Virus record (IMG/VR): IMGVR_UViG_3300024275_000016
Coordinates: 1-41,446 of that record
DNA from: a virus
Lineage: Duplodnaviria > Caudoviricetes
Length of the DNA: 41,446 nucleotides
Reading direction: 5' to 3' (one strand)
The notes beneath the pieces were generated by a model, which saw only the letters and a program-made list of their open reading frames with translations, searched no databases and had not been told where the DNA came from. Shown in pieces: positions 2,343 through 24,508 of this stretch. The translations under genes and the position numbers were made by a program. Numbering within the stretch: the first letter of the stretch is position 1; every line of letters starts with the position of its first letter.

Positions 2343-3461
2343 CTATTCCCCGAATCGATGCTCCAGCTCGCGGATCGCCGCGCCGGCCTTCGTGGCCTGC
2401 TTCCGTTTGCGGTCGATTTCCCGCTTAACGGCACGCTCCGTTCCGGCATCCGCCAGGTCTGCCTCCGTGTGGACGTTCATTGCCAGCATATCGCCTTTAT
2501 CCTTCAGCATTTGTGTGAAGCGAAACGCCGGCCAGTCCGCATTTTCCAGCCCAACCACTGTCAGATCCCCTATCCCCTGCCCCTTCAGCCAGTCGATAAT
2601 CTCTCGAGACCACTGGTGCAGCCAATTCGTGAGCCAGCCGTCCCAGGTCATGTTGGCGAGCGTCTGACGCTTGCTGCGGGCTGAACCCTTGCGCCGGCCG
2701 ATCTGACACAACACCCGGCGCCGTATCGCATCCCACTCCTGTTTCCGCTTCAATAGCGTGACCAGCCGGCCGGTGAAGTCCCGGGACTCGAATTCCGTCC
2801 GCAGCCACAACCTATTGTTTTGTCCAATTGGGCCCAAGGTGGCCTTACGCTGGCCGAACGTGCCAAATTGTACCGCTATGGGGTAGGCCAGCCGGACTAT
2901 GACCTGGCGCCGTTCCGGCTTGACGACGATCGCGGCCTTGCGAATCGATATCTTCCCGGCCGCCATGTCATCCAGCAGGGGGCCCTGCCAGTCTTTGACT
3001 GTCCCGCACGCGAGGGGAATTTTAAGCCACGCCCCGTCCTCACATTTCGCTGCCTGTGCCTGTAATTCAATGACATAGCGGTCACCGTCTCGAGTCAGAC
3101 GGACCCCTGATTCCTTCCGGTCCTTGTTGCCGCGGATGGTGAGGGCGGCTGTGGTTTTCCACTCAGGGAGAGGGGCGCCGGCCAGGATGCGTTTGGCGTG
3201 GCGCCGCCAGGTCATCAGAACTTCGCGTTCTGCGGCCGTATAGGCATTGCTGCCCAGTTCCATCTTCTCGTCGTGCCGGATCCACCGGGTCACATCGTGA
3301 GGGATGTTTTTGGTGGGATCGACGCAGAGATTTTTGGATTCAGCCCAGAGCGCGCGCAGGAACAGGTTCCGGTAGCGTGCTGCCTGCCATGAGAGGTCCT
3401 TGAGGCGCTGGAAGAGTTCCCAGTCTCCCCGCAGATCGAGTTTAACGGCGAGCACGCGCAT
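2343..3461 (-). CDS. Cas12f/TnpB-like RNA-guided protein, predicted nuclease-dead and C-terminally truncated
   Basis: Blocks resembling Cas12f1 (recalled alignment): DWELFQRLKDLSWQAARYRN, LGSNAY..WRRHAKRILAGAPLPEWK, LLDDMAAGKISI..VIVRLAY, NWLHQWSREIIDWLKGQGIGDLTVVGL, WPAFRFTQMLKDKG. RuvC-I GIDLG reads LGPIG, RuvC-II MEDL reads VVGL, no CxxC ribbon or RuvC-III. Start ATG 3461 (372 aa) or GTG 3485. Confidence 0.8.
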   Translation of the reverse strand: MRVLAVKLDLRGDWELFQRLKDLSWQAARYRNLFLRALWAESKNLCVDPTKNIPHDVTRWIRHDEKMELGSNAYTAAEREVLMTWRRHAKRILAGAPLPEWKTTAALTIRGNKDRKESGVRLTRDGDRYVIELQAQAAKCEDGAWLKIPLACGTVKDWQGPLLDDMAAGKISIRKAAIVVKPERRQVIVRLAYPIAVQFGTFGQRKATLGPIGQNNRLWLRTEFESRDFTGRLVTLLKRKQEWDAIRRRVLCQIGRRKGSARSKRQTLANMTWDGWLTNWLHQWSREIIDWLKGQGIGDLTVVGLENADWPAFRFTQMLKDKGDMLAMNVHTEADLADAGTERAVKREIDRKRKQATKAGAAIRELEHRFGE

Positions 3462-3489
3462 ACGCTCATGCTCGCCGTCTGCCACTGCC

Positions 3490-3625
3490 TCTGACGCTGT
3501 ATGCGGCACCACGACCGGAGAACTGGGGCCGTCGCCGTTGCCGGCGTGAAGAGTGCCTCGTGCGAGATTACGAGGAGATTCAGCCGAAGCAGTAGAATCG
3601 GACATTCCAATCCAACTGTACGCTA
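3490..3625 (-). ncRNA. putative tracrRNA/scaffold RNA
   Basis: Intergenic; minus strand has CAGTTCTCC (3525..3517) complementary to repeat GGAGAACTG and CTTCA (3551..3547) complementary to repeat TGAAG; several hairpins including a GCAA tetraloop; ends approximate. Confidence 0.6.
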
Positions 3626-3631
3626 AAAGCC

Positions 3632-3778
3632 TCAGTCGGTGGTGACCAAGCATTTTATCAATGCATAGGCCAGCACCACGTTCAGAGCCATCGACAAAAG
3701 CAAAAGACGCCGGTACCGCATTACTTCGCGGTACGGCGTCCACGCCCGCTCTTTGAGCATGTCGTCATGATGCTTCAT
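3632..3778 (-). CDS. small membrane protein
   Basis: MKHHDD... 48 aa, one hydrophobic helix, ATGA overlap with the upstream gene. Confidence 0.5.
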   Translation of the reverse strand: MKHHDDMLKERAWTPYREVMRYRRLLLLSMALNVVLAYALIKCLVTTD

Positions 3779-12499: not shown

Positions 12500-13489
12500 T
12501 TAACCTCCTGGGTTCCACTCGCCGCTGATGGGCTGTTTCTTCTTCATTGGGTCGGTGCTGCCAAATGCCCCCGCCCAATTGAACCCTCCGGTGCCGCCAG
12601 ACAGGCCTCCGGCGAGTAGATCAGTAACACCGCTGCCGATGCCGCCCAACATGCCGTTCCAGGCGTTGGCGGCGTTCATGTTGCCTTGCGCCTCGGCATT
12701 CCCTGCCCCCACCTGGGTATCCGCCAGATACTTGCCGGCATTCATCGTATTGGCCGCCGCCAGATTTTCGGCGTTGATTTTTGCATTGCTTCCGTACTGC
12801 TGGCTGTTCGTGCGCATGTTGCCCGCGTACTCTTCCCCCTGCATGCCAGCGGTGCCGGCGTATCGCTCGGCTTCTGTCAGGTTGGTGCCGGATTGTCCAG
12901 CCGCCGTGAGGCCTCGTCCGGCGAGTGTCCCCAGCACATCAGCCTGTCCCTTGTTCTGGGTGTCCCACCTATTGAAGGCGGCGCCGTACTCGCCCGCCGC
13001 GGCGTTCTGGTTGTAGTTGCTGAGTGCCTTTAGGGTGCCGCTAGAGACGCCCATTGCCTGCGCTTTCGCCTGCATGGCACGTTGCCCTTGGTCCAATCTA
13101 AATTGATAGCCAGGGTCATACTTCACCATGTCCGAGGCGGTGAAGCCCTTACCCATCGTGTCGGCCAGCGTTGCCAACTTTCCGGTGGCGTCGGCGCCCG
13201 CGGTGGCGTACGGGGAGAGCATCCCGTTGGCCTCGAGGGCCGCATTCCTGACGCCGGCCTGGGCCGATTTGTAGGCGTCCGTTACGCCCGTCGCCGCGGC
13301 CTCGCCGGCAGCCATCACGGGCTTGATGGCTTCGTCGGTGGTGGTGCGGATGCCGGTATTGACATCTTTGGCTGTGTCTTGGACGGTTTGTCCCGCCTGT
13401 GCCAGGCCCTTTTTCTGCGCGTCGGCGGCGTTGTGCGCTGCACTAGCTCCCTGTACGCCCCCAATCACCGAAGTCACGATACTGGGCAT
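12500..13489 (-). CDS. DNA transfer protein (P22 gp7-like)
   Basis: Gly/Ala-rich; LSPYATAG, DPGYQFRLDQGQRA, SGTLKALSNYNQNAA motifs. Confidence 0.75.
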   Translation of the reverse strand: MPSIVTSVIGGVQGASAAHNAADAQKKGLAQAGQTVQDTAKDVNTGIRTTTDEAIKPVMAAGEAAATGVTDAYKSAQAGVRNAALEANGMLSPYATAGADATGKLATLADTMGKGFTASDMVKYDPGYQFRLDQGQRAMQAKAQAMGVSSGTLKALSNYNQNAAAGEYGAAFNRWDTQNKGQADVLGTLAGRGLTAAGQSGTNLTEAERYAGTAGMQGEEYAGNMRTNSQQYGSNAKINAENLAAANTMNAGKYLADTQVGAGNAEAQGNMNAANAWNGMLGGIGSGVTDLLAGGLSGGTGGFNWAGAFGSTDPMKKKQPISGEWNPGG

Positions 13490-13965
13490 AATTCCTCTTT
13501 ACTGAGGCCGAATAACACCTGGTCCTCGAGTTTGCCGTGTTTCATAAAACTCCCGGGGTTCGTACCGTATTGCGTCATCCCCGCCCGCTGTACCAGCTTC
13601 AGAGCCAGCCGGGCGTACGCCGGGATGGCGCCCGTGATGCGTCTCGCTGGCGTATTCTGAAACATCCACTCGAGGGCCCCGCGCAGGATGACGTGTCCGC
13701 GTGTCTCGCGCCTGGGAAGCAGGATGATATGGCCTTCCCAGCAAATCATGCTCTGCGGCAAAAACGTGAACAGACCGACAAGTGACTCCCGCTCCCAGAC
13801 GGGGAGGTACACGATGCGCGGGTCATCGTTCGGCTCGAACGTCTCAGGGTCTCCGGCATAGTCGTCCCCAATCCATGGCCAGATGCGAGGCAGCGTGTAG
13901 ATCCCGCGCACCAGGCGCAGGTTGCGAGTGCGTTCAAACCTTATTCCGGCACCGGCCATAGGCAC
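13474..13965 (-). CDS. GNAT-fold phage protein (P22 gp14/DUF2824-like)
   Basis: CWEGHIILLP, ALEWMFQNTPARRITGAIP, SFMKHGKLEDQVLFGLSKEE; typical position before the ejection genes. Confidence 0.7.
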   Translation of the reverse strand: MPMAGAGIRFERTRNLRLVRGIYTLPRIWPWIGDDYAGDPETFEPNDDPRIVYLPVWERESLVGLFTFLPQSMICWEGHIILLPRRETRGHVILRGALEWMFQNTPARRITGAIPAYARLALKLVQRAGMTQYGTNPGSFMKHGKLEDQVLFGLSKEELCPVS

Positions 13966-14375
13966 ATGGTGATGAGCGGGTACTCGTTGTTGTTGTAAAG
14001 CACGAGCGGCTGCAGGGCCTGAGATCCCTTCTCCATCACCTGCGCGAATTCCTTGGACGAGACCAGCTTCAGCGCCTTGCGCAGGCCCAGCTGCGGGTCG
14101 TCGTAGATTACGCCGGCGCTTTGAATCTTGACCGGCCGCTCCGTGTTGAAGTCCGCGGACGGGCTGGGGCCCATCGTGTAGCAGGCCTTTCCGGACTGCA
14201 GCTGGAATTGCTTCTGGTCGATGATGTAAACCGCCCTATGCTGTGTACTCATCTCACCGAGCAGATCGTTCAATACGCCTAATGCCGTCGCGGACTCCTC
14301 AGGGTTCGGTAGCTGCCCGTGCCGTAGTTCTCCCGTGGCCCTCATGGCGCTGTTGATCAGATCCTGTACCGTCAT
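13941..14375 (-). CDS. N-terminal half of head-tail adaptor paralogue (stand-alone)
   Basis: Aligns to the N-terminal ~140 aa of 23100..23786 (MTVxxLIxS, DFxTxRPVKIxSAGV, EKxxQAxQPLVLY) and stops at WPVPE. Confidence 0.8.
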   Translation of the reverse strand: MTVQDLINSAMRATGELRHGQLPNPEESATALGVLNDLLGEMSTQHRAVYIIDQKQFQLQSGKACYTMGPSPSADFNTERPVKIQSAGVIYDDPQLGLRKALKLVSSKEFAQVMEKGSQALQPLVLYNNNEYPLITMCLWPVPE

Positions 14376-15388
14376 GCTGACACCTCCGGCGGGTCTTCAA
14401 TGGCCAGGTCATTCGAAGCGTTCAGCCCCCCGATCGCGGTCATGGCGTCCTTCGCGAGGGCTTCCTGGATTACGGAGTCGCGCCCCTGCTCGATGGCCAG
14501 TTGCGCTGCCAGCGCGTACCGCAGGGCTTTTTCGTACCCCGGGGGGAAATTGATCTCCTCATCGAGACTCGAGAACTCCGTGAGCAGCCGCCACACCCAC
14601 AGTTCCAAAAAGTTCACTGACGGGCCGGGCGGCGGGGTGGTAATGGGGATGTCGATCACATCCTCGGCAAGCCCGAGGGTAAAGTCGAAAAACTGGTCGC
14701 CCGGGGATATGTCATAGATGCCGACCCGCAGGACGCCCGACAGCAATGCCTGGTAGAGGTCGAACAAGCTGGCGGGCGGCACCCGGAACCAGCCAGTCAC
14801 CGCGAAGGGGGGCATGTAGGCCGGGCTGGGGAATCGAGGAGGGCCGCCGGGATAGATGGCATTGTCGTCGGTCTCCCCGAACACTCCGGGGAAGCCCATG
14901 AAGGTATCTATTGTGACGTCGGAGCTATTCAGGCGGTACGTGGTGGTTTCTCCCATGTAGCCGCAATTGACGGGCGTCCCGAAGACATCCAGAAAGCCGA
15001 AAAAGAGGTTCTGCCCGCCATCGAAGTCGAAGTCCCCGGGCTGCGGGGTGCTGCGCAGGTAGTAGAAGTTACCGGCACCGAACTGCGCGACGTAGACCGG
15101 GTTGGGCGAGCCCGAGTCTCCGTCATAGAGTGTGATACGAAGGTTGGCCGCCCCGAGCCCTCCCCCCAGGAGTCCCGCAAAATCGATGCCCGCGAGGTCG
15201 TCCGCGATGATGGTCAGCCAGTTGGTTCCCGCGGGCGTCCACCCCTTGAACAGGCGCGCCGCCGAAATCTGCTGGACCAGCCTCTGCCCGTTCGATCCCA
15301 CCATGTCGATAATCAGCCCGCCCATGACGCTGAACGCAGGCGGCAGCAGGCCGATGCCAGGGCTGGTCTGGGTGTCAAGGTTGCTCAC
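14372..15388 (-). CDS. unknown beta-rich domain fused to C-terminal half of head-tail adaptor
   Basis: Ends LELWVWRLL..FPPGYEKALRYALAAQLAIEQGR..GGLNASN..EDPP, matching the C-terminus of 23100..23786. Confidence 0.75.
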   Translation of the reverse strand: MSNLDTQTSPGIGLLPPAFSVMGGLIIDMVGSNGQRLVQQISAARLFKGWTPAGTNWLTIIADDLAGIDFAGLLGGGLGAANLRITLYDGDSGSPNPVYVAQFGAGNFYYLRSTPQPGDFDFDGGQNLFFGFLDVFGTPVNCGYMGETTTYRLNSSDVTIDTFMGFPGVFGETDDNAIYPGGPPRFPSPAYMPPFAVTGWFRVPPASLFDLYQALLSGVLRVGIYDISPGDQFFDFTLGLAEDVIDIPITTPPPGPSVNFLELWVWRLLTEFSSLDEEINFPPGYEKALRYALAAQLAIEQGRDSVIQEALAKDAMTAIGGLNASNDLAIEDPPEVSA

Positions 15389-16719
15389 AGTTCCCTCACG
15401 CCTTCCTTCCGGATGGAATCGTTAGATTGCTCGAGCTCCCCCATGGCCTGGTTTGCCTGCTGCTCCACGACCGCTGGATCACGTCCGTACTCCTTGCATA
15501 GCTCTCTGGCCAGGCCCATCACCAACGCCCGGAGGTAGACCGGGGGGAAGGTCGCCGCGTCCGTCAGGGCATCGAAATGCCACATCTGCCTCCACACCCA
15601 CAGGTCCAGCCAGATGCCCGTGGGCGTGCCCAAAGCCGGAGGGATGACGATAGAGCAGGTGGCGCTGACAGTGGAAGTGGCGCCGCCGCCGCCGATACCA
15701 ACGGGGGTTCCGGGAATGATGAACGTGCCGGGGGAATTCTGGTTGTGGTACTCCGTTGTGATCCAGTTGGCGGAAAGCTCGACGTTCAGGATATGCAACT
15801 CATCGACGTTGCCCGTTTTAAATCCGATATCAAAAAACTTGGCTACCCGCCCTGTAGTGGAACCGCCGTTATCGGCTGTCCAGCCACCGGATACCGCCGT
15901 GCTGCCATCACTGTAAACCCGGCCAGTTGCCGCCGGTGGAGTGCTCTCTGTCCCTGCCACATAGTGCCAGCTTCCGTTCGTGATATTCGTGGCGGTGGTT
16001 GCGACGGTCTCGCCCGCTCCGTTCGTTGAGTAAATTTTAAACTTCCCGTCCACGTCCGTATAAAACACGCATCCAAACCCGTCCGCACGGCGTGGATCCC
16101 ATATCGGAAACATTCCAGTGGTCTTCACCCATGCCGTGCATGAAATCTGGCCGAAAGGCTGCTGCGCGGGAATTGCGAGATTCTCACTGCTGGCAGCGGT
16201 GAAGGATTGCCCGTTGCCAATCTTTCCCGCCGTCTGAGTTGAGAGGTTGACCGTGCTGTGATAGCCGTGCGAGGTCGAGTCGAGCGCCTGCGCGTTGCTC
16301 GCTTCGTTCAGGTGGTAGACCGCGACGAACTGGGATCCCCACACCGCCTGGGAACCGAACGCCGCGTTCGCCGCGGGCTGGGTGATGCCTCCGCCAGCCT
16401 TGTACCAGACGTAGATCGTCACGTCCGATGCCGTAAGGACGTTGACGGGAACCCAGATCTCCGCAGAGGCTAAAGAGGGGTTGGCGTTTTGAGCCCAGGT
16501 AACGATCTCGCACGCCAGTTGAGAGGCTCCGGCGCTATCGGATGAGAAGCGGATATCCCCGCCATCGGACTGCGCGGCATTGCTCCCCCCTGCCGTCACC
16601 ATTTCCGCGGGGAGACACGCTGCCGTGATTAAGACAGGGAATGCCGTCTGGTCCGCCGGGACCTGTCCATGCTGGACGACCAGGGCGCACTGTCTTGTCC
16701 ATCCCGTTGGAAATGCCAT
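15385..16719 (-). CDS. DUF2341 + LamG/concanavalin-like protein fused to adaptor C-terminal half; probable receptor-binding protein
   Basis: AQSDGGDIRF, VTIYVWY, AVYHLNE, WHYVAGT, VDELHI, WITTEYHNQNSP; tail LDLWVW..FPPVYLRALVMGLARELCKEYGR. Confidence 0.75.
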   Translation of the reverse strand: MAFPTGWTRQCALVVQHGQVPADQTAFPVLITAACLPAEMVTAGGSNAAQSDGGDIRFSSDSAGASQLACEIVTWAQNANPSLASAEIWVPVNVLTASDVTIYVWYKAGGGITQPAANAAFGSQAVWGSQFVAVYHLNEASNAQALDSTSHGYHSTVNLSTQTAGKIGNGQSFTAASSENLAIPAQQPFGQISCTAWVKTTGMFPIWDPRRADGFGCVFYTDVDGKFKIYSTNGAGETVATTATNITNGSWHYVAGTESTPPAATGRVYSDGSTAVSGGWTADNGGSTTGRVAKFFDIGFKTGNVDELHILNVELSANWITTEYHNQNSPGTFIIPGTPVGIGGGGATSTVSATCSIVIPPALGTPTGIWLDLWVWRQMWHFDALTDAATFPPVYLRALVMGLARELCKEYGRDPAVVEQQANQAMGELEQSNDSIRKEGVREL

Positions 16720-16725
16720 ATATGT

Positions 16726-18816
16726 CTAGGTAATCGTCGCCGTGACAGTGAAGTGGTAGTGGCCGTCGGTCGTCGGGGTGCCGGTCACCTGACCTGTCGC
16801 GGTGTTCAGCGTGAGACCCGGGGGGAGCGCTCCGCCTGTGATGGAGTAGACGACGGTCGCCCCCGAGGGAATGTCGGTTACCGGAAAGGTGTGGCTGTAG
16901 GGTACTCCAATCTCGCCCCCCGGCGGGGACCCGCAGCCTATGCCGGACGCCGGTAGGTCCGTTACCGTGATGGTGATGTCGCAGGTGCCGACTGTGCTGC
17001 CGGAGTCGTCGCTCACCTGGACCGTGAATTCAAAGGCACCCGCCAGTGTGGGGGTGCCCGAGACCTCGCCGGTCAGGGAGTCGAGCGTGAGGCCCGGGGG
17101 GAGAGTTCCGTCGATAATGGCGAACGTGAACGGTGGCGTGCCGCCGGATACCGGGAACGCGTGATGGTATTCGACCCCCACCACGCCGTTCGGGGGACCG
17201 CCGCAGCCGAGTCCCAGAGTGGAGGCGATGACGGTGATGCTGCAGTCCGCCGTGCCGGTAGCATGGTCCGCGTCCGTTACCGTTATGGTGATGGGATAGC
17301 TGCCTGCCAGTGTGGGGGTGCCGGAGACACTGCCCGTGCTGCCCGTGAGCGTGAGTCCGGGGGGAAGAGTTCCGGCGGTCACGGTGAAGACATAGGGCGC
17401 GGTTCCTCCGGTTGCCGGGAAAGTATGCGAGTAGGCTGTCCCGACCACGCCACCGGGAGGGGACCCGCAGGTTACTGCAGGAGCGCCGCCGCCGCCCCCG
17501 CCTGACGGGGGGAAGACAAGCAGCTTGGATGTCTCGATCGGGAGTCCAGTGCCTCCATCATCAACGCCCTCGAAATTACCCAGCACCCCCAAACCGATTC
17601 CCGGCCCGGACCAGACCCCTACTTGACCGGCTCCCCAGTGCACGGTGCCGCCATCAAACGGTCCCATGACGCTGGTCTCTGCCGTCCAGGTGGTCAGGTC
17701 GCTGGCCGCTGCGGTGGAGCTGCGGATCTCGCCCAGTTTGCCGTTGATATTCCAGGTGTGCGGGACACCCGTCTGGGTCCAGAAAGCATGGAGGGTTCCG
17801 TCCAGAATGTTGAGGGCGGCGAGCCAGTCCGGGGCGATAACCGGATCTTGCACCACGTTTGCCGTGGAAGGCAGATTATGGAATGTCCAGCCGGGGCTTA
17901 GGGTGCCGCCGGCAGCGGAGTAGATGACCAGGTCTCCGTTATCTCCGTCGCTTGACCGGTTGCGCACGCCGAGGAAAGCAATCGTATCGGATGGGGCCGG
18001 GAAGTCCAGCAGGTTGCTTGTGTCGTTCTGAAAGTATGCATTCGTCTCAATTGTCTGGAAGGTCCCAAAGCTTCCAGCGGGGGACATTCCCACGTGATAC
18101 CAGAAGTGAAAGTCGTTGCCGGCCGACAGGATTACATGCAGGTTGCCTGACGCATCGATGCCGGCGCAGCGCTCGAGATACGCCACCGACGCCCCCGCCT
18201 GGCCGGCGAGTGCTATCCCGGCACCGCAGGAGGCACCGTTGAAGGGCGCGACAAAGATCCTGGAGTATTTGTTCGCGCCGATGGCCTCCACGCCCGTATA
18301 GAGAAGCAGCATGTCACCGGGGCCCCTGCGGAGCAGGTGCAGGCAGATGCCAGAACGGATCGGATAAGAGGTGCCGCTCCAGCCCTTCCAGACGGTGGGG
18401 GCCCCGCTGAGTGGACCGCCCGCACCAAAACTGCCGGCCGCCAGGTTGTAAGTGAATAGCAGAAGCGGACCCGTGGTTTGATCAGCGGAAGTCGCGCCAG
18501 TGCCATCGATGTCAACCGCCATCAGGTAGACGGTACTGCCATCCATGCAAGTCGTATAAGTGGGTACGGCATTGGGGAGAACGCCGGCAATCGGAGGGAT
18601 ATTGATATTGCCGGTGTCGGTCCAGGTGGCGCCCAAGTCGGTGCTCTTCAAGGCGTGGATACGAAGATCACCGACCCCAAATTCGGACCCCTGATAGAGA
18701 AACAGGTATTGAGCCCCTGCGTACTCATAGCCGCCGATGGCGCCGGGGATAGGAGCATTTGGACACTGGCGGAAATCCCAGCCCAGGCCCGAATTCGGCA
18801 GATTGATTACACTCAT
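16726..18816 (-). CDS. tail/virion protein with BNR-like N-terminal region and three putative Ig (He_PIG) repeats
   Basis: KSTDLGATW Asp-box; three repeats of PxGxVGxxYxHxF..GxLPPGLTLxxxTGxVSGTPT. Confidence 0.75.
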   Translation of the reverse strand: MSVINLPNSGLGWDFRQCPNAPIPGAIGGYEYAGAQYLFLYQGSEFGVGDLRIHALKSTDLGATWTDTGNINIPPIAGVLPNAVPTYTTCMDGSTVYLMAVDIDGTGATSADQTTGPLLLFTYNLAAGSFGAGGPLSGAPTVWKGWSGTSYPIRSGICLHLLRRGPGDMLLLYTGVEAIGANKYSRIFVAPFNGASCGAGIALAGQAGASVAYLERCAGIDASGNLHVILSAGNDFHFWYHVGMSPAGSFGTFQTIETNAYFQNDTSNLLDFPAPSDTIAFLGVRNRSSDGDNGDLVIYSAAGGTLSPGWTFHNLPSTANVVQDPVIAPDWLAALNILDGTLHAFWTQTGVPHTWNINGKLGEIRSSTAAASDLTTWTAETSVMGPFDGGTVHWGAGQVGVWSGPGIGLGVLGNFEGVDDGGTGLPIETSKLLVFPPSGGGGGGAPAVTCGSPPGGVVGTAYSHTFPATGGTAPYVFTVTAGTLPPGLTLTGSTGSVSGTPTLAGSYPITITVTDADHATGTADCSITVIASTLGLGCGGPPNGVVGVEYHHAFPVSGGTPPFTFAIIDGTLPPGLTLDSLTGEVSGTPTLAGAFEFTVQVSDDSGSTVGTCDITITVTDLPASGIGCGSPPGGEIGVPYSHTFPVTDIPSGATVVYSITGGALPPGLTLNTATGQVTGTPTTDGHYHFTVTATIT

Positions 18817-19866: not shown

Positions 19867-21051
19867 TCAGAGTAATCCTCCTGATTGCGTGGGTATTCCG
19901 CCCGAGAGAATGCGACGTGTATATTGCGGGGCTGGCCCGCCCGAAGGCGTGACATCAGTCCGCGTGCCTGCGACGATAAACGTACTTGGCGAGTGCTCGT
20001 TGTTGTATGCAGTAGAAATCCAGGAGGCAGACCGAGCAATCCCTTTTGAGATTCGCAATTCGTCCAGATCCGCTGCCAGGAGCAGAGAGTTTGAACTTCG
20101 GCGGCGACCAATATTAAACTCCTGCGAATTGGCAATCGTGTTCGCGCCGAGGTTGTTGTCTCCTGTTGTGGTTGCTGTGGATGACCCGTTCAAGTACGCC
20201 GTCACCCCGCTTGCCAGGTGATTGCCGCTATACGTAAATACGATATGCTTCCAGGTGCCGTCGTTGATGGTTGAGTTGATATGTACATCCATATCAACTG
20301 CCCCGGCATTGTTGCTTAAGAGCGCAAAGTTGATCTGCCCGCCTGAGACAAAGACTTGATAGCCTCGAAAAGTAGAACTTCCGTCCATCTTCTCAAAGAC
20401 CATTCTCGTCCCTGTATCGGTGAACAGTATCCAAAATTCAAAAGTGAATGAGTCTGAATACTCCAGTTGGAGCGCGGCGACATCCGCTGTGTGAACGTAC
20501 GGGCCGACATTGAAAAAGGCGTACCCATCGATAACCCCAGCGGTAGAGCCGTCCACTGCTCCAGGAGGGCCGACTGCGATGGGAGAGTTTTTCCCGGTGG
20601 AGTCAGCTACAGACAGCGTTGATCCATTCGGGAAATGCTGCACCAAGCTGTAGTTGGTGTCCCACACCGCATTAGCCCCAAAGGATGCGTTGGCCGCTGG
20701 CTGCGACAGACCGCCGCCGCCACTCCACCATACATAGATGGTTACATCCGATCCGGTCAGCACGTCGCGCGGAACGTGGATCTCGGCTCGCGCACTTGAA
20801 AAGGTAGCATTCTGGGACCAGCGCACCACCTCGCAGGCGATCTGCGTAGCGCCCGCGCTGTCCGTCGAAAAGCGCAGGTCTCCGCCGTCCGACTGCGCCG
20901 CGTGCGGATCGCCCGTGGTGAGGATTTCAGGGCAGTTGGTGGCAAAGCTCGCCTCGGTGATAAGCACGGGAAACGCGGTCTGATCGGCAGTCACCTGCCC
21001 GTGCTGGACAACCAACGCCGCGCGACAAAGCCAGCCTGTAGGGAATGCCAT
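19867..21051 (-). CDS. DUF2341 + LamG/concanavalin-like protein (paralogue of 15385..16719)
   Basis: MAFPTGW..ALVVQHGQV.ADQTAFPVLIT shared N-terminus; FTFEFWI, NDGTWKHIVFTY, LDELRIS. Confidence 0.8.
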   Translation of the reverse strand: MAFPTGWLCRAALVVQHGQVTADQTAFPVLITEASFATNCPEILTTGDPHAAQSDGGDLRFSTDSAGATQIACEVVRWSQNATFSSARAEIHVPRDVLTGSDVTIYVWWSGGGGLSQPAANASFGANAVWDTNYSLVQHFPNGSTLSVADSTGKNSPIAVGPPGAVDGSTAGVIDGYAFFNVGPYVHTADVAALQLEYSDSFTFEFWILFTDTGTRMVFEKMDGSSTFRGYQVFVSGGQINFALLSNNAGAVDMDVHINSTINDGTWKHIVFTYSGNHLASGVTAYLNGSSTATTTGDNNLGANTIANSQEFNIGRRRSSNSLLLAADLDELRISKGIARSASWISTAYNNEHSPSTFIVAGTRTDVTPSGGPAPQYTRRILSGGIPTQSGGLL

Positions 21052-21055
21052 AGCC

Positions 21056-21343
21056 CTAAAATCCTATGTCCCCCACACCGAACCCGATAAGTTGCCAGGG
21101 GCCGCCCTTGCCGGTCACCCCCCCTCCCGCCCCCGCTCCCGGTGCACTTTCACCAGCTGCTGCACAACACTCTTCCAGGGCTTTCTCGGTGGCTGCCACC
21201 GCTTGCCGCACGGCCTCTTTGACCGCGAGGTCGAAGAGGCTCTGGAAATACATGATCCAGGTGCGGGTCCACCGGCCGTCGGCATCGAATGCCGGCGACT
21301 CCTTCGGGATGCGCGGTTCCCGGGGTTCGCGGGGCTCCGCCAT
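21056..21343 (-). CDS. hypothetical tail protein
   Basis: MAEPREP..DADGRWTRTWIMYFQSL; follows the gp10-like gene with TAATG overlap. Confidence 0.6.
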   Translation of the reverse strand: MAEPREPREPRIPKESPAFDADGRWTRTWIMYFQSLFDLAVKEAVRQAVAATEKALEECCAAAGESAPGAGAGGGVTGKGGPWQLIGFGVGDIGF

Positions 21344-23103
21344 TACTTGCCTACCTTCGCGGTGATATCGGCCCCCAGCCACGGGCCGTTGTCCGTGCCC
21401 TGCTGGGTGATGCGGAACACCCTGCCGCGGGCACACCCCAGGCGCCACCACTGCACCCGCTTCAGGAAGGCGCCAGTGGCCCCCCCGGTTGCTGTGCGCG
21501 GCGTGCTCCAGGTGTGCCCGTAGTCGTCGCTGGTTTCCAAGGTGAAGCTGGGCTCATCTTCCGCCGTGCCGGCCTCGCGGTCAAGGAAGAGGCGGGAGAA
21601 GAAGAAACGCTTGTTGTCGGCGGCCACGTGCGGCGTGGTGCGAATGTAGCGGATGTCCGTTCCGTCATCGTCCGGGAAGTCGAAGGACATCTCGTAGATT
21701 TTCCCGGTGGTGCGATCGCCAACGAAGTGCCGCGGCTGCAATTTCTCGCCTTCCCCCACCGGCAACAGTCCGGTATAGGCGTGGCACCTCCCGCGGAACT
21801 GGTGCAGTTCCTGGGCGTCGAGGGCGCCCTCGAGCGAGCCCCACTCGTGCCAGAAGCCCGTTGCCTCGTCGTATACCCAGGTGACCCCGAGCGGGGTGTC
21901 ATCGTCGGCTAAATCCGCGGTCGGAAAGGTGAGTACCCAGAACGAATGCCTGTCGATAACTACCGGATAGCCGATGGCATCGTCCACCCGTTTGTACGTG
22001 CGCCATACCTGCTCGATCGCCGGCGTGGACACCGGCTTAGGGACGAACCCCTGCGCCTGCCAGGCTGTCAGCGCGCCGCGGGCGTCACCGCCCAGCCAGT
22101 AGACGCCGCCGGGCAGCTGCGACAACGACCAAGTGGCCACGCAGCCCTGGTGCATGAAGGCTCCCTTGTCGCTCGCGAAGGGCGAGTTGGAATCCCCGGA
22201 GTCCCGATATACCTCTGAGGTCTGCCGGCCCATCACGTAGAGTTCTTCATGGTCTGCGATGATACTGGCCACCGAGTCCGGGTAGCCGTCTTTCACGAAA
22301 AAGTCTCCGGCCTCCCAGATCAGCCCGTTATTGGGGGTGCAGAAGCGCACGATCTTGCCGTCAATCCCGTAGTTCCCGGTTTTTGGTTGCTGCGCGATGA
22401 AATATCCGTCGAGATATGCACCCGTCACCGCCACCAGGAATTCGGTGCCGCTGTACTCCTCCGCGGTCCCTCCCGTTGCACCGAGGAGTCCGGCGGGGAC
22501 GTTGAGTACCGCGCTTGCCGGTGTCGTGTCGGTCGCCGGCATGAACGCGATAATCTTGACGAGCTGCAAAGTGAACCCGGTTCCGCCGCCGGTGATGAGC
22601 AGGTAGCTGCCAACATCGGCTTCCGTGAATGGGGTCAGTACGGAACTGATGACGGTATTATTGACGGCTGAGATTGCGAGATCAGTGTAGGTGCCGATCT
22701 GCAGTGGCGGCTGAACCATGGCCGTGCCATTGGCCACGAACCCCTTGCCCGCGGAGACCACGAATAGCTGGTTGCCGTTGGCGAACATCTGCACCGGCGT
22801 GTGGTCGTCGTCGTCGCCAATCTCGTTATCCGTGACCGGGGAGGTCGCGGTGCCGTCCGCGAAGATCTCGTACAGTTTGCTACCGCCCGCGGCAAATAGA
22901 CGGTCCTCTCCAGCCCAGAGGCCTCGGACGGGGGCTGTCGGGAGCGTACAGAACAGCTTCAGCCCGGGGCGCGCCCGCAGGATGGTCTTGTTGGGCTCCG
23001 TGCCGGTGTTCGCCTCAACAAAGCGGTTCAGCGACTGCTGGCACGCCACGTTGATGGAGCTGTGCTGGTAGCTGCCTCCGATGAATCCCTGAAATTCACT
23101 CAT
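21343..23103 (-). CDS. tail hub / packaged-DNA stabilisation protein (P22 gp10-like)
   Basis: 586 aa; RPGLK, YLDGYFI, TWVYDEATGFWHEW, SDDYGHTWS, WWRLGCARGRVFRI. Confidence 0.85.
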   Translation of the reverse strand: MSEFQGFIGGSYQHSSINVACQQSLNRFVEANTGTEPNKTILRARPGLKLFCTLPTAPVRGLWAGEDRLFAAGGSKLYEIFADGTATSPVTDNEIGDDDDHTPVQMFANGNQLFVVSAGKGFVANGTAMVQPPLQIGTYTDLAISAVNNTVISSVLTPFTEADVGSYLLITGGGTGFTLQLVKIIAFMPATDTTPASAVLNVPAGLLGATGGTAEEYSGTEFLVAVTGAYLDGYFIAQQPKTGNYGIDGKIVRFCTPNNGLIWEAGDFFVKDGYPDSVASIIADHEELYVMGRQTSEVYRDSGDSNSPFASDKGAFMHQGCVATWSLSQLPGGVYWLGGDARGALTAWQAQGFVPKPVSTPAIEQVWRTYKRVDDAIGYPVVIDRHSFWVLTFPTADLADDDTPLGVTWVYDEATGFWHEWGSLEGALDAQELHQFRGRCHAYTGLLPVGEGEKLQPRHFVGDRTTGKIYEMSFDFPDDDGTDIRYIRTTPHVAADNKRFFFSRLFLDREAGTAEDEPSFTLETSDDYGHTWSTPRTATGGATGAFLKRVQWWRLGCARGRVFRITQQGTDNGPWLGADITAKVGK

Positions 23104-23786
23104 GCGGGCTGTTGTGGGGGAGCCGGAGGAGGTGGCGGATCTTCCTGCGCCGCGAAGTTGGCAATATTCAGACCGGAGACTGCCCCCAGCGACTTCTGCG
23201 CCTCGGTGATGACAAGCGGGGAAGGCTCGCGTTCGTATTCCGGCGCCAGGTCCACCGCCAGGTTGTAGCGGATGGCCTTGAGGTATGCCGGCGGCAGATC
23301 GACGTCATCGTCGAGGGCGAACGTCGGCAGATCCAGCCACATCACCAGTTCCAGCGTGGTTGTGCTGAGCTTGGGCACGGGGTTTAGCTGAATCTTCGCG
23401 AGCGGCCAGTCGTTGTCTATGTACAACACCAGCGGCTGCTTCGCCTGCGCTGATTTCTCGGGGATACTCGCGAACATCTTGGACGTGACCAGGGCCAGGT
23501 CGGTGCGCAGTTCGTTTTCCTGGATGACGCCGGCGCTTTCGATCTTGACCGGCCGTCCAGTATCGAAGTCGCCTCCGGTCCCTATCGTGTAGACCGCCTG
23601 GCCCGCCGTAAGAGGGAAGGTCTCCGTCCTCTTCGTGTAGACCAGAGGATGCAGGGCACGCCAATTGTCGATCAGCGTGTTCAGCGTGATCAAACCATCG
23701 GTCAGCTCATCGACGTTAGGTGTCTCGCCCGGCTGCCCGACGTTGATCAGCCGGAGGCTTGAGGTAATGAGTTCGGTGACCGTCAT
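23100..23786 (-). CDS. head-tail adaptor (P22 gp4-like), copy 2
   Basis: Paralogue of 23783..24508 (LRL, YTIG, RPV.I, LELxxW, LPxxYxxAIxYNLAV); synteny. Confidence 0.75.
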   Translation of the reverse strand: MTVTELITSSLRLINVGQPGETPNVDELTDGLITLNTLIDNWRALHPLVYTKRTETFPLTAGQAVYTIGTGGDFDTGRPVKIESAGVIQENELRTDLALVTSKMFASIPEKSAQAKQPLVLYIDNDWPLAKIQLNPVPKLSTTTLELVMWLDLPTFALDDDVDLPPAYLKAIRYNLAVDLAPEYEREPSPLVITEAQKSLGAVSGLNIANFAAQEDPPPPPAPPQQPA

Positions 23787-24508
23787 GTGGGCATCCCCGT
23801 GACGTAGTTGAATGAGCCGCCCCGGCCGCCCCCCGTGCCGAAGTCTGCCGAGGGGACCGCCGGCGAGGGGGCGTTGTTGCCCTTCACCCAGGCCATCGTG
23901 CGCCGGGCCGTGGCCAGCACGTTGGGTCGGATCGGCGTGCCGAATTGATCGTTCAGTTGCACGGCGAGGTTATAGGCGATCGCATTGGCATAACCGAGGG
24001 GCAGCGAGACCGCGGCGGCCTGCGAGGGGAAAGACGATAGCTGCTGCCACGTGAACAGCTCAAGGTCATTGGCCATGGTGGGGTAGCCCCACAGGTATAG
24101 CCGGGAATTCGGGAAGGCGCAGTCGTTGTACAGGTCGGTCGGCACGGACGTCGGGATCACGGTCACACGCCGGCGTGACCACTGTGTGTCTGTGAGCAGG
24201 TTCAGGGGAAGGTGAACCTCGCTCACACCCAGCAGCACCAGGTTGGCCTGGGTGATGCGAACCGGACGCGGGGCAATGAAGTCCGCGCCGGACGGCCCGA
24301 TGGTGTACGAGGTCTTTGACGGACTCAGGTTGTAGCGGGCCGCCTGGATGGTGTAGATCAGCTCGTCCTGAATCGTCCACGAGCCCAGCATGCGGTTGAG
24401 GGCGTCGAACGCATCCGCGAGTTCGGAGGTACTCGCGGTGCGCCCGGGCGCCCCCAATATGCCGGCCAGGCGCAGGGCCGGGTACAGCAACTCCGTCGCT
24501 ACCGACAT
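23783..24508 (-). CDS. head-tail adaptor (P22 gp4-like), copy 1
   Basis: ALRLAGILG..DALNRMLGSW..LPLGYANAIAYNLAVQL; between coat and gp10-like genes. Confidence 0.75.
   Translation of the reverse strand: MSVATELLYPALRLAGILGAPGRTASTSELADAFDALNRMLGSWTIQDELIYTIQAARYNLSPSKTSYTIGPSGADFIAPRPVRITQANLVLLGVSEVHLPLNLLTDTQWSRRRVTVIPTSVPTDLYNDCAFPNSRLYLWGYPTMANDLELFTWQQLSSFPSQAAAVSLPLGYANAIAYNLAVQLNDQFGTPIRPNVLATARRTMAWVKGNNAPSPAVPSADFGTGGGRGGSFNYVTGMPT

What the first reader, a model, noticed from the sequence alone, without database searches (positions are those of the whole stretch)
13941..16719. Split head-tail adaptor: a free N-half gene plus two cargo proteins each ending in the complementary C-half
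Seen: the intact adaptor 23100..23786 reads ...LNPVPK-LSTTT-LELVMW...LPPAYLKAIRYNLA. ORF 13941..14375 reproduces everything up to WPVPE and stops. ORFs 14372..15388 and 15385..16719 each end with the remainder (LELWVW..FPPGYEKALRYALA; LDLWVW..FPPVYLRALVMGLA) fused behind unrelated domains, one of them DUF2341-LamG. The halves are complementary and in permuted gene order. Inference: a natural split-protein docking system in which the N-half complements either C-half, inserting different receptor-binding domains into the neck ring. This would be a modular display mechanism.
Basis: partly seen in the sequence, partly recalled or inferred. Interest (0 to 1): 0.75.

Follow-up and report, generated by a model that had tools for sequence, protein, structure and literature searches.

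The report
Split phage tail adaptor carrying cargo
A group of uncultured soil phages keeps a spare copy of its head-to-tail ring protein cut in two, one gene for the front half and two genes in which the back half is fused behind other domains, and the halves likely snap back together to hang those domains, one of which differs between relatives, on the virus tail.

Summary
The split is real and conserved. In this P22-like soil phage the free N-half and both cargo-fused C-halves match complementary parts of one adaptor family. The cut lies in the loop before the last strand of the beta-dock domain. One contig spans the region and other runs bridge each junction. The order cargo A+C, cargo B+C, N-half recurs in four other loci. 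All three pieces are under purifying selection and each side has one origin. Slot A changes cargo between relatives (LamG, discoidin, Ig repeats, almost none); slot B does not. A second split sits upstream: an Ig repeat lacks its last strand, which cargo A carries. Best reading: the halves complement in trans and build extra adaptor ring(s) that display the cargo. Closest precedents: the split nozzle of phage A1002 and the multi-ring barrel of crAss001. I found no split adaptor in print. This scan noted analogous splits in other phage parts on other DNA, not this one.

The parts
13941..14375 (-). Free adaptor N-half, 144 aa: two helices and the beta-dock domain without its last strand; ends one residue after W-P-x-P
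14381..14387 (-). Shine-Dalgarno-like GGAGGTG upstream of the N-half start, inside the end of the slot-B gene; the two genes also overlap by 4 bases
14372..14608 (-). C-half B (residues 261-338): last dock strand and two C-terminal helices
14609..15388 (-). Cargo B (about residues 1-250) and proline-rich linker: conserved domain of no Pfam family, predicted beta-rich
15385..15609 (-). C-half A (residues 371-444)
15640..15678 (-). Lone last strand of a He_PIG-type Ig repeat (residues 348-360), just before C-half A
   Evidence: weak profile score; motif in 16 of 18 slot-A proteins
15679..16719 (-). Cargo A: DUF2341-like region (below cut-off) and LamG domain; 40% identical to the protein of 19867..21051
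16726..18816 (-). 696-aa fibre-like protein with three He_PIG Ig repeats; the third (16726-16935) stops before its last strand
23100..23786 (-). Intact adaptor 2 (228 aa), the paralog type closest to the split halves
23783..24508 (-). Intact adaptor 1 (241 aa) with a longer C-terminal arm
21343..23103 (-). P22 gp10-like head-closure (nozzle) protein, context
   Evidence: phrog_578 E 4.5e-80

Best explanation
A duplicated head-to-tail adaptor gene of this phage clade is split in the loop before the last beta-dock strand, and the free N-half likely pairs non-covalently with either cargo-fused C-half to rebuild adaptor subunits that would form one or two extra tail rings displaying a fixed cargo B and a variable cargo A. 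Shown: complementary halves, conserved cut point and gene order, purifying selection, retained core residues, one origin per side, variable slot A. Predicted: the position of the cut in the fold (model of the intact paralog). Inferred: physical pairing through the donated strand and the four-helix bundle; assembly as rings stacked with the two intact adaptors (one mixed ring or one ring per C-half cannot be told apart); outward display; binding of host surface sugars by the cargo. The likely origin is tandem duplication followed by replacement of two N-halves by cargo and loss of one C-half, which explains the permuted order.
For: Profile positions 2-143 against 148-213. AlphaFold model of the intact paralog, pLDDT 93.8: strands end at 135, last strand 144-151, helices 168-184 and 190-209, so neither half has a whole beta-dock or a whole helix bundle; the model matches solved podophage adaptors (Foldseek E 7e-10 to the A4 adaptor; Z 12.9, rmsd 3.6, 198 aligned). 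All 18 N-half proteins listed end 1-5 residues after W-P-x-P and the stop is seen in 7 of 7 loci, window included. Order A-B-N in L002, L003, L005 and L008, B-N at the edge of L001. dN/dS 0.07-0.20 in the 12 within-subclade pairs and below 0.6 in all 35 pairs. Split N-halves (13 of 68 rows) one clade, 100/98; split C-halves (41 of 94 rows) one side of a branch, 99/98. The donated strand L-[DE]-[LI]-W-V-W-R is kept in 41 of 41 split C-halves, while intact adaptors vary there (for example Y in 70 of 127 at the first W). The C-half alone models at pLDDT 35-53 beside a cargo at about 90. Precedents: strand complementation between two nozzle fragments in A1002 (PMC13730344) and stacked paralogous rings in crAss001 (PMC10172136).
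Against: No virion, expression or binding data; the host is unknown. The strand motif was used to find and cut the slot-A rows, so its invariance is partly selection (less so for the 24 slot-B rows, found by their cargo). The eight window-type N-halves replace the near-invariant W42 by M. The low confidence of the lone C-half may only reflect a shallow alignment. The C-half tree has 83 columns, its bootstrap did not settle, and the midpoint root lies on the branch in question. In L006 another element, not a C-half gene, lies directly upstream of the N-half, and the contig ends there. Cargo B has no significant fold match.
Confidence: 0.62

Rival explanations
1. The halves do complement, but the rebuilt unit is not a ring of the DNA channel: it sits on the side of the tail or neck as a collar or fibre anchor.
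For: Two intact adaptors already exist. Accessory collars on the adaptor periphery are described for A1002, DEV and GP4 (PMC13730344, section read). Slot-A C-halves depart from the intact consensus in the helices (for example Y174 to L or M, A196 to L in 11 of 17).
Against: The helix-bundle residues P166, Y168, A171, L176 and N207 are kept on both C-halves, and related phages carry three or four intact paralogs, as expected of stacked rings (L008, L011-L016, L093).
Confidence: 0.14
2. The pieces are joined covalently: a frameshift at the B/N overlap makes a circularly permuted cargo-C-N protein, or readthrough and protein splicing join them.
For: The B/N overlap is 4 bases in 6 of 6 loci that hold both genes. 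The fibre stop and the slot-A start are in frame and 6 bases apart in the window and L002.
Against: The N-half has a start codon of its own and GGAGG upstream in the window, L001, L002 and L003. None of the 35 split C-half hits runs on into an N-half. No intein family hit and no H-N-C/S/T motif. C-half A would still lack a partner in cis. The stops differ (TAG, TGA), TAG ends 11 of 45 ORFs checked, and L003 has about 1.5 kb between the Ig pieces.
Confidence: 0.1
3. The C-halves are tags that swap into the intact adaptors, displacing their own C-terminal part, and the N-half does something else or is only a chaperone.
For: C-half B is 43% identical to intact adaptor 2; only one N-half serves two C-halves.
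Against: The N-half is as constrained as the C-halves, travels with them in every locus long enough to tell, and both trees show the same two subclades. Displacing a covalently attached strand and two helices is unlikely (inference).
Confidence: 0.08
4. Decaying fragments or a misassembly.
For: L003 has many frameshifts.
Against: Those frameshifts hit all genes of L003 alike. Junctions are bridged in four other runs; dN/dS near 0.1; the cut point holds down to 47% identity.
Confidence: 0.02

Closest known systems
Split nozzle gp39/gp42 of Pseudomonas podophage A1002 (PMC13730344; abstract, first part of Results, nozzle section and Discussion read)
   Same: A core tail protein is divided between two genes; the C-terminal fragment carries added domains at its N-terminus; the fragments fill each other's missing beta-strands (shown there by cryo-EM).
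   Different: There it is the only nozzle and one partner; here it is a spare adaptor paralog, one N-half has two alternative C-halves, the C-half genes come first, one cargo varies across a clade, and complementation is inferred.
Podophage head-to-tail adaptors with a beta-dock (Pfam SU10_adaptor PF24175, phrog_12985; A4 gp32, A1002 gp47, GP4, VP1, SU10; P22 gp4 lacks the dock)
   Same: Same fold in the intact paralog; the dock domain anchors fibres in known phages (PMC13730344 section, PMC12002296 passages).
   Different: Known members are single chains to which fibres bind from outside; here the cargo is fused to the dock's own last strand.
Multi-ring tail barrel of crAss001 (PMC10172136, passages read)
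   Same: Several paralogous adaptor-fold genes; five stacked dodecamers from four genes, one gene building two rings.
   Different: All ring proteins there are whole and fibres attach through separate hub proteins; this phage has P22-type coat and portal families.
Donor-strand complementation in chaperone-usher pili and engineered split Ig tags (recalled, no call)
   Same: An Ig or beta-sandwich domain lacking one strand is completed by a strand from another chain, as proposed for both splits here.
   Different: No chaperone or covalent bond is evident; the adaptor split also divides a helix bundle.

Membership tests
SU10-type / phrog_12985 podophage adaptor | Helix bundle from N- and C-terminal helices plus beta-dock domain | tested here: met
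   Intact paralog model and fold matches; the halves together cover profile positions 2-213 of 238
SU10-type / phrog_12985 podophage adaptor | One polypeptide | tested here: not met
   Separate ORFs in permuted order in the window and four other loci; 81 other loci hold only whole adaptors
SU10-type / phrog_12985 podophage adaptor | Dodecameric ring on the tail axis | not testable with these tools
   Needs cryo-EM
SU10-type / phrog_12985 podophage adaptor | C-terminal arm that hooks onto the portal or ring above | tested here: inconclusive
   Split C-halves end like intact adaptor 2 and lack the longer arm of adaptor 1; what the short arm binds is not shown
A1002-type split tail protein | Complementary fragments of one core fold on separate genes, cargo N-terminal to the C-fragment | tested here: met
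A1002-type split tail protein | Fragments physically complement | not tested
A1002-type split tail protein | The split protein is the nozzle | tested here: not met
   The nozzle-type gene 21343..23103 is whole (phrog_578 positions 8-471 of 486)
Fractured genes with split inteins | Intein halves on both fragments | tested here: not met
   N-half ends one residue after the adaptor motif; no intein family; no H-N-C/S/T motif
crAss-type multi-ring barrel | Several paralogous ring genes | tested here: met
   Two whole plus one split set here; three whole plus the split set in L008
crAss-type multi-ring barrel | Rings stacked in the virion | not testable with these tools
   Needs cryo-EM
Carbohydrate-binding module (cargo B) | CBM jelly-roll fold | tested here: inconclusive
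   Best CBM rows Z 4.4-4.8, rmsd 2.9-4.0, 99-118 aligned, at background level; no Foldseek match

The most novel reading that the evidence does not exclude
These phages build their tail appendages as a chain of plug-and-socket joints: one shared N-half socket takes two different plugs in a mixed adaptor ring, and plug A in turn donates a strand to the unfinished Ig repeat of a separate fibre, so any domain dropped into either hairpin is displayed without touching the DNA channel. This would be a natural, evolvable display scaffold built into the tail axis itself.
Probability: 0.3. Interest if true: 0.85.

Novelty: new variant of a known kind. Interest (0 to 1): 0.7.

Why it matters
The adaptor is treated as an indivisible core part of every short phage tail. 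A clade that has kept it in two pieces, with two alternative back halves, shows a route by which phages add and exchange surface domains: fuse them to a strand of the ring itself instead of evolving a new binding site. It gives a concrete prediction for structure work (extra rings, two cargo types, two strand-complementation joints) and a candidate natural split-protein pair for protein assembly. It also means annotation of such phages misses adaptor fragments hidden at the ends of 'lectin' or 'Ig-domain' genes.

Tried and rejected
Co-folding of the halves was not obtained: the complex predictor was not available, so pairing stays open. Scans of viral contigs with single proteins or the first alignment found nothing; the genome collection gave one weak unrelated hit, L007; the genome search draws no relatives for a virus, so host and prophage state are open. 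Cultured phages: 26 records match the N-half at 26-41% identity; none of their regions was opened, and the one phage (2 records) matching the slot-B protein does so only through its C-half, so no cultured carrier of the split was seen. Cargo B: no Pfam family, no fold match (the whole 338-residue model was searched, not the domain alone), Atlas hits under 0.8. Sequence search of solved structures gave only weak Sf6 gp7 rows. DNA repeats that could rejoin the halves: none links the N-half end to a C-half start among the 20 largest direct families and 21 inverted pairs shown. Stop-codon reassignment rejected. Paper searches listed no split adaptor; only listings were seen for all but three papers, subscription papers such as the GP4 structure were not in the library, and no supplements were read. 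Rows dropped: 8 intact adaptors without a detectable cut site from both trees, 2 more with an insert from the C tree; L004 (the window's own sequence) and L010, L090 (same contig as L008) from locus counts; L003 from the N-half and C-half B dN/dS sets (frameshifts).

Full report
Setting. The window is a 41.4-kb phage contig whose ends share a 126-base direct repeat, with P22-type portal, coat, head-closure and ejection genes on the minus strand. The 15 runs that hold parts of the region are all labelled soil metagenome. The host is unknown.

The observation. ORF 13941..14375 matches positions 2-143 of the 238-position adaptor family phrog_12985; the ends of ORFs 14372..15388 (slot B) and 15385..16719 (slot A) match positions 148-212 and 151-213. 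Pairwise E-values against the intact adaptor 23100..23786 are 6e-35, 1e-12 and 2e-9. A second intact adaptor lies at 23783..24508. One 15.5-kb contig of the possible source run covers the region without a difference, and four other runs bridge the junctions: N/B in X2 and X5, B/A in X2, X3, X5 and X12, A/fibre in X2.

Where the cut lies. The AlphaFold model of the intact paralog (127 sequences, pLDDT 93.8) has helices 3-13 and 25-43, a beta domain from 51 to 151, and helices 168-184 and 190-209. It matches the adaptors of A4, VP1, GP4, DEV, SU10, P22 and the crAss001 rings. The N-half stops after strand 130-135; both C-halves begin with strand 144-151. So the N-half lacks one dock strand and half of the helix bundle, and each C-half supplies exactly these. 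In A1002 the same fold is described as a helix bundle from both ends of the chain plus a beta-dock that anchors fibres in most podophages (PMC13730344, Results section read). That the cut loop points outward is my inference from that; I had no coordinates.

Relatives. One search found 12 proteins among 22 candidates of 79-252 residues: 10 of 144-148 aa at 47-97% identity and two partial ones. All 18 N-half proteins I listed end 1-5 residues after W-P-x-P. The order A, B, N recurs in L002, L003 (frameshift-rich), L005 and L008; L001 shows B, N at its edge; L006 shows the N-half behind another element at its edge. As a control, profiles of each half were run over all 93 loci and the window: apart from these and duplicates, 81 loci hold only whole adaptors, one is cut by a contig end and two have no hit (many of the 81 are near-copies). 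dN/dS is 0.07-0.20 in the 12 within-subclade pairs and under 0.6 in all 35 pairs, where distant pairs are near saturation. The 13 split N-halves form one clade (100/98) beside the paralog type of intact adaptor 2; the 41 split C-halves lie on one side of a branch (99/98; short alignment, unsettled bootstrap). Both trees hold the same two subgroups. Core residues are kept, except W42, which is M in 8 of 13 N-halves; the donated strand is fixed in 41 of 41 C-halves, partly because it was used to pick the slot-A rows.

Cargo. Slot B is constant: 24 of 37 hits to that protein end in a C-half; in the other 13 the same domain is truncated, fused to Ig or other domains, or follows a signal-peptide-like start. 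It models well (pLDDT about 90 over most of residues 1-250) but has no significant fold match; its best domain rows are carbohydrate-binding modules at Z 4.4-4.8. Slot A varies: of the 42 hits to the C-half profile, 21 were slot B, 14 slot A-like and 7 whole adaptors, and slot-A proteins carry LamG, F5/8 discoidin, one to four He_PIG repeats, or next to nothing. A contig in run X12 skips the 1,068 bases of cargo A, as L002 does.

A second split. The 696-aa protein upstream ends in an Ig repeat that covers only positions 1-64 of an 82-position profile, and cargo A carries positions 68-80 just before its C-half. The profile score of that strand is weak, but its motif stands within 25 residues of the C-half in 16 of 18 slot-A proteins, against 5 matches in 58,747 other residues. 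Of those 18, 8 have a whole Ig there, 3 have an Ig with a domain inserted in this hairpin in the same chain, 5 have the lone strand and 2 none. P0221 joins a homolog of the 696-aa protein (43% over 227 residues) to a C-half in one chain. So this hairpin is a recurring insertion site and has been cut in the window's subgroup; completion in trans is likely but a remnant or readthrough is not excluded.

Mechanism. Most likely the N-half and either C-half re-form an adaptor subunit, and such subunits make one mixed ring or two further rings beside those of the intact paralogs, as paralogous rings stack in crAss001 (PMC10172136, passages read). The N-half has its own ribosome-binding site and overlaps the slot-B stop by 4 bases in 6 of 6 loci, which fits separate, coupled translation. 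Covalent joining is less likely: no intein signs, no fused C-N protein among 35 split hits, no recoding of TAG. Pairing itself was not tested.

Comparison and verdict. The nearest case is the split nozzle of A1002, where a cargo-bearing C-terminal fragment fills missing strands of the other fragment (PMC13730344). Eight paper searches listed no split adaptor, within a library that lacks most subscription papers. Earlier notes of this scan describe analogous splits in other phage parts and none for this protein or genome. The feature is a real, clade-wide, selected split of a core virion fold with two alternative partners: a new variant of a known kind, interest 0.7.

Noticed in passing
L009:999-7676: An unrelated, baseplate-bearing phage has three adjacent Ig-repeat genes broken in the same way: one ends before the last strand, the next carries a spare strand and ends at profile position 31, the third holds a piece starting at position 32.
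   Followed up: partly
L009:9995-11221 (P0191); P0184, P0189, P0192, P0200, P0202: The cargo-B domain also occurs fused to a PF10934 domain, to He_PIG repeats, and behind signal-peptide-like N-termini: an unnamed mobile surface domain.
   Followed up: partly
L006:2-454: An ORF on the opposite strand that looks like an IS605-family TnpB (recalled likeness, not scanned) lies directly upstream of an intact N-half.
   Followed up: no
window 2343..3743: 466-aa ORF with a weak OrfB_IS605 hit below cut-off.
   Followed up: no
ESM Atlas: Clusters of 132-148 aa adaptor-like proteins (67, 66 and 100 members) resemble the N-half; they may be this family, independent splits or cut gene calls.
   Followed up: no
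P0021, P0022, P0023, P0026, P0035, P0048, P0058, P0084, P0131: Adaptor relatives with internal duplications or many fused helix modules, up to 958 aa: tandem duplication is common in this family.
   Followed up: no
L011-L016, L093, L008: Phages with three or four whole adaptor paralogs, suggesting multi-ring tails outside crassviruses.
   Followed up: partly
window 13474..13965: The acetyltransferase-like head-morphogenesis gene starts across the N-half stop in the window, L001, L002, L003 and L008, and is absent in L005 and L006.
   Followed up: partly
window 19867..21051: Stand-alone LamG protein 40% identical to cargo A over 338 residues, the likely source of that cargo by duplication.
   Followed up: yes
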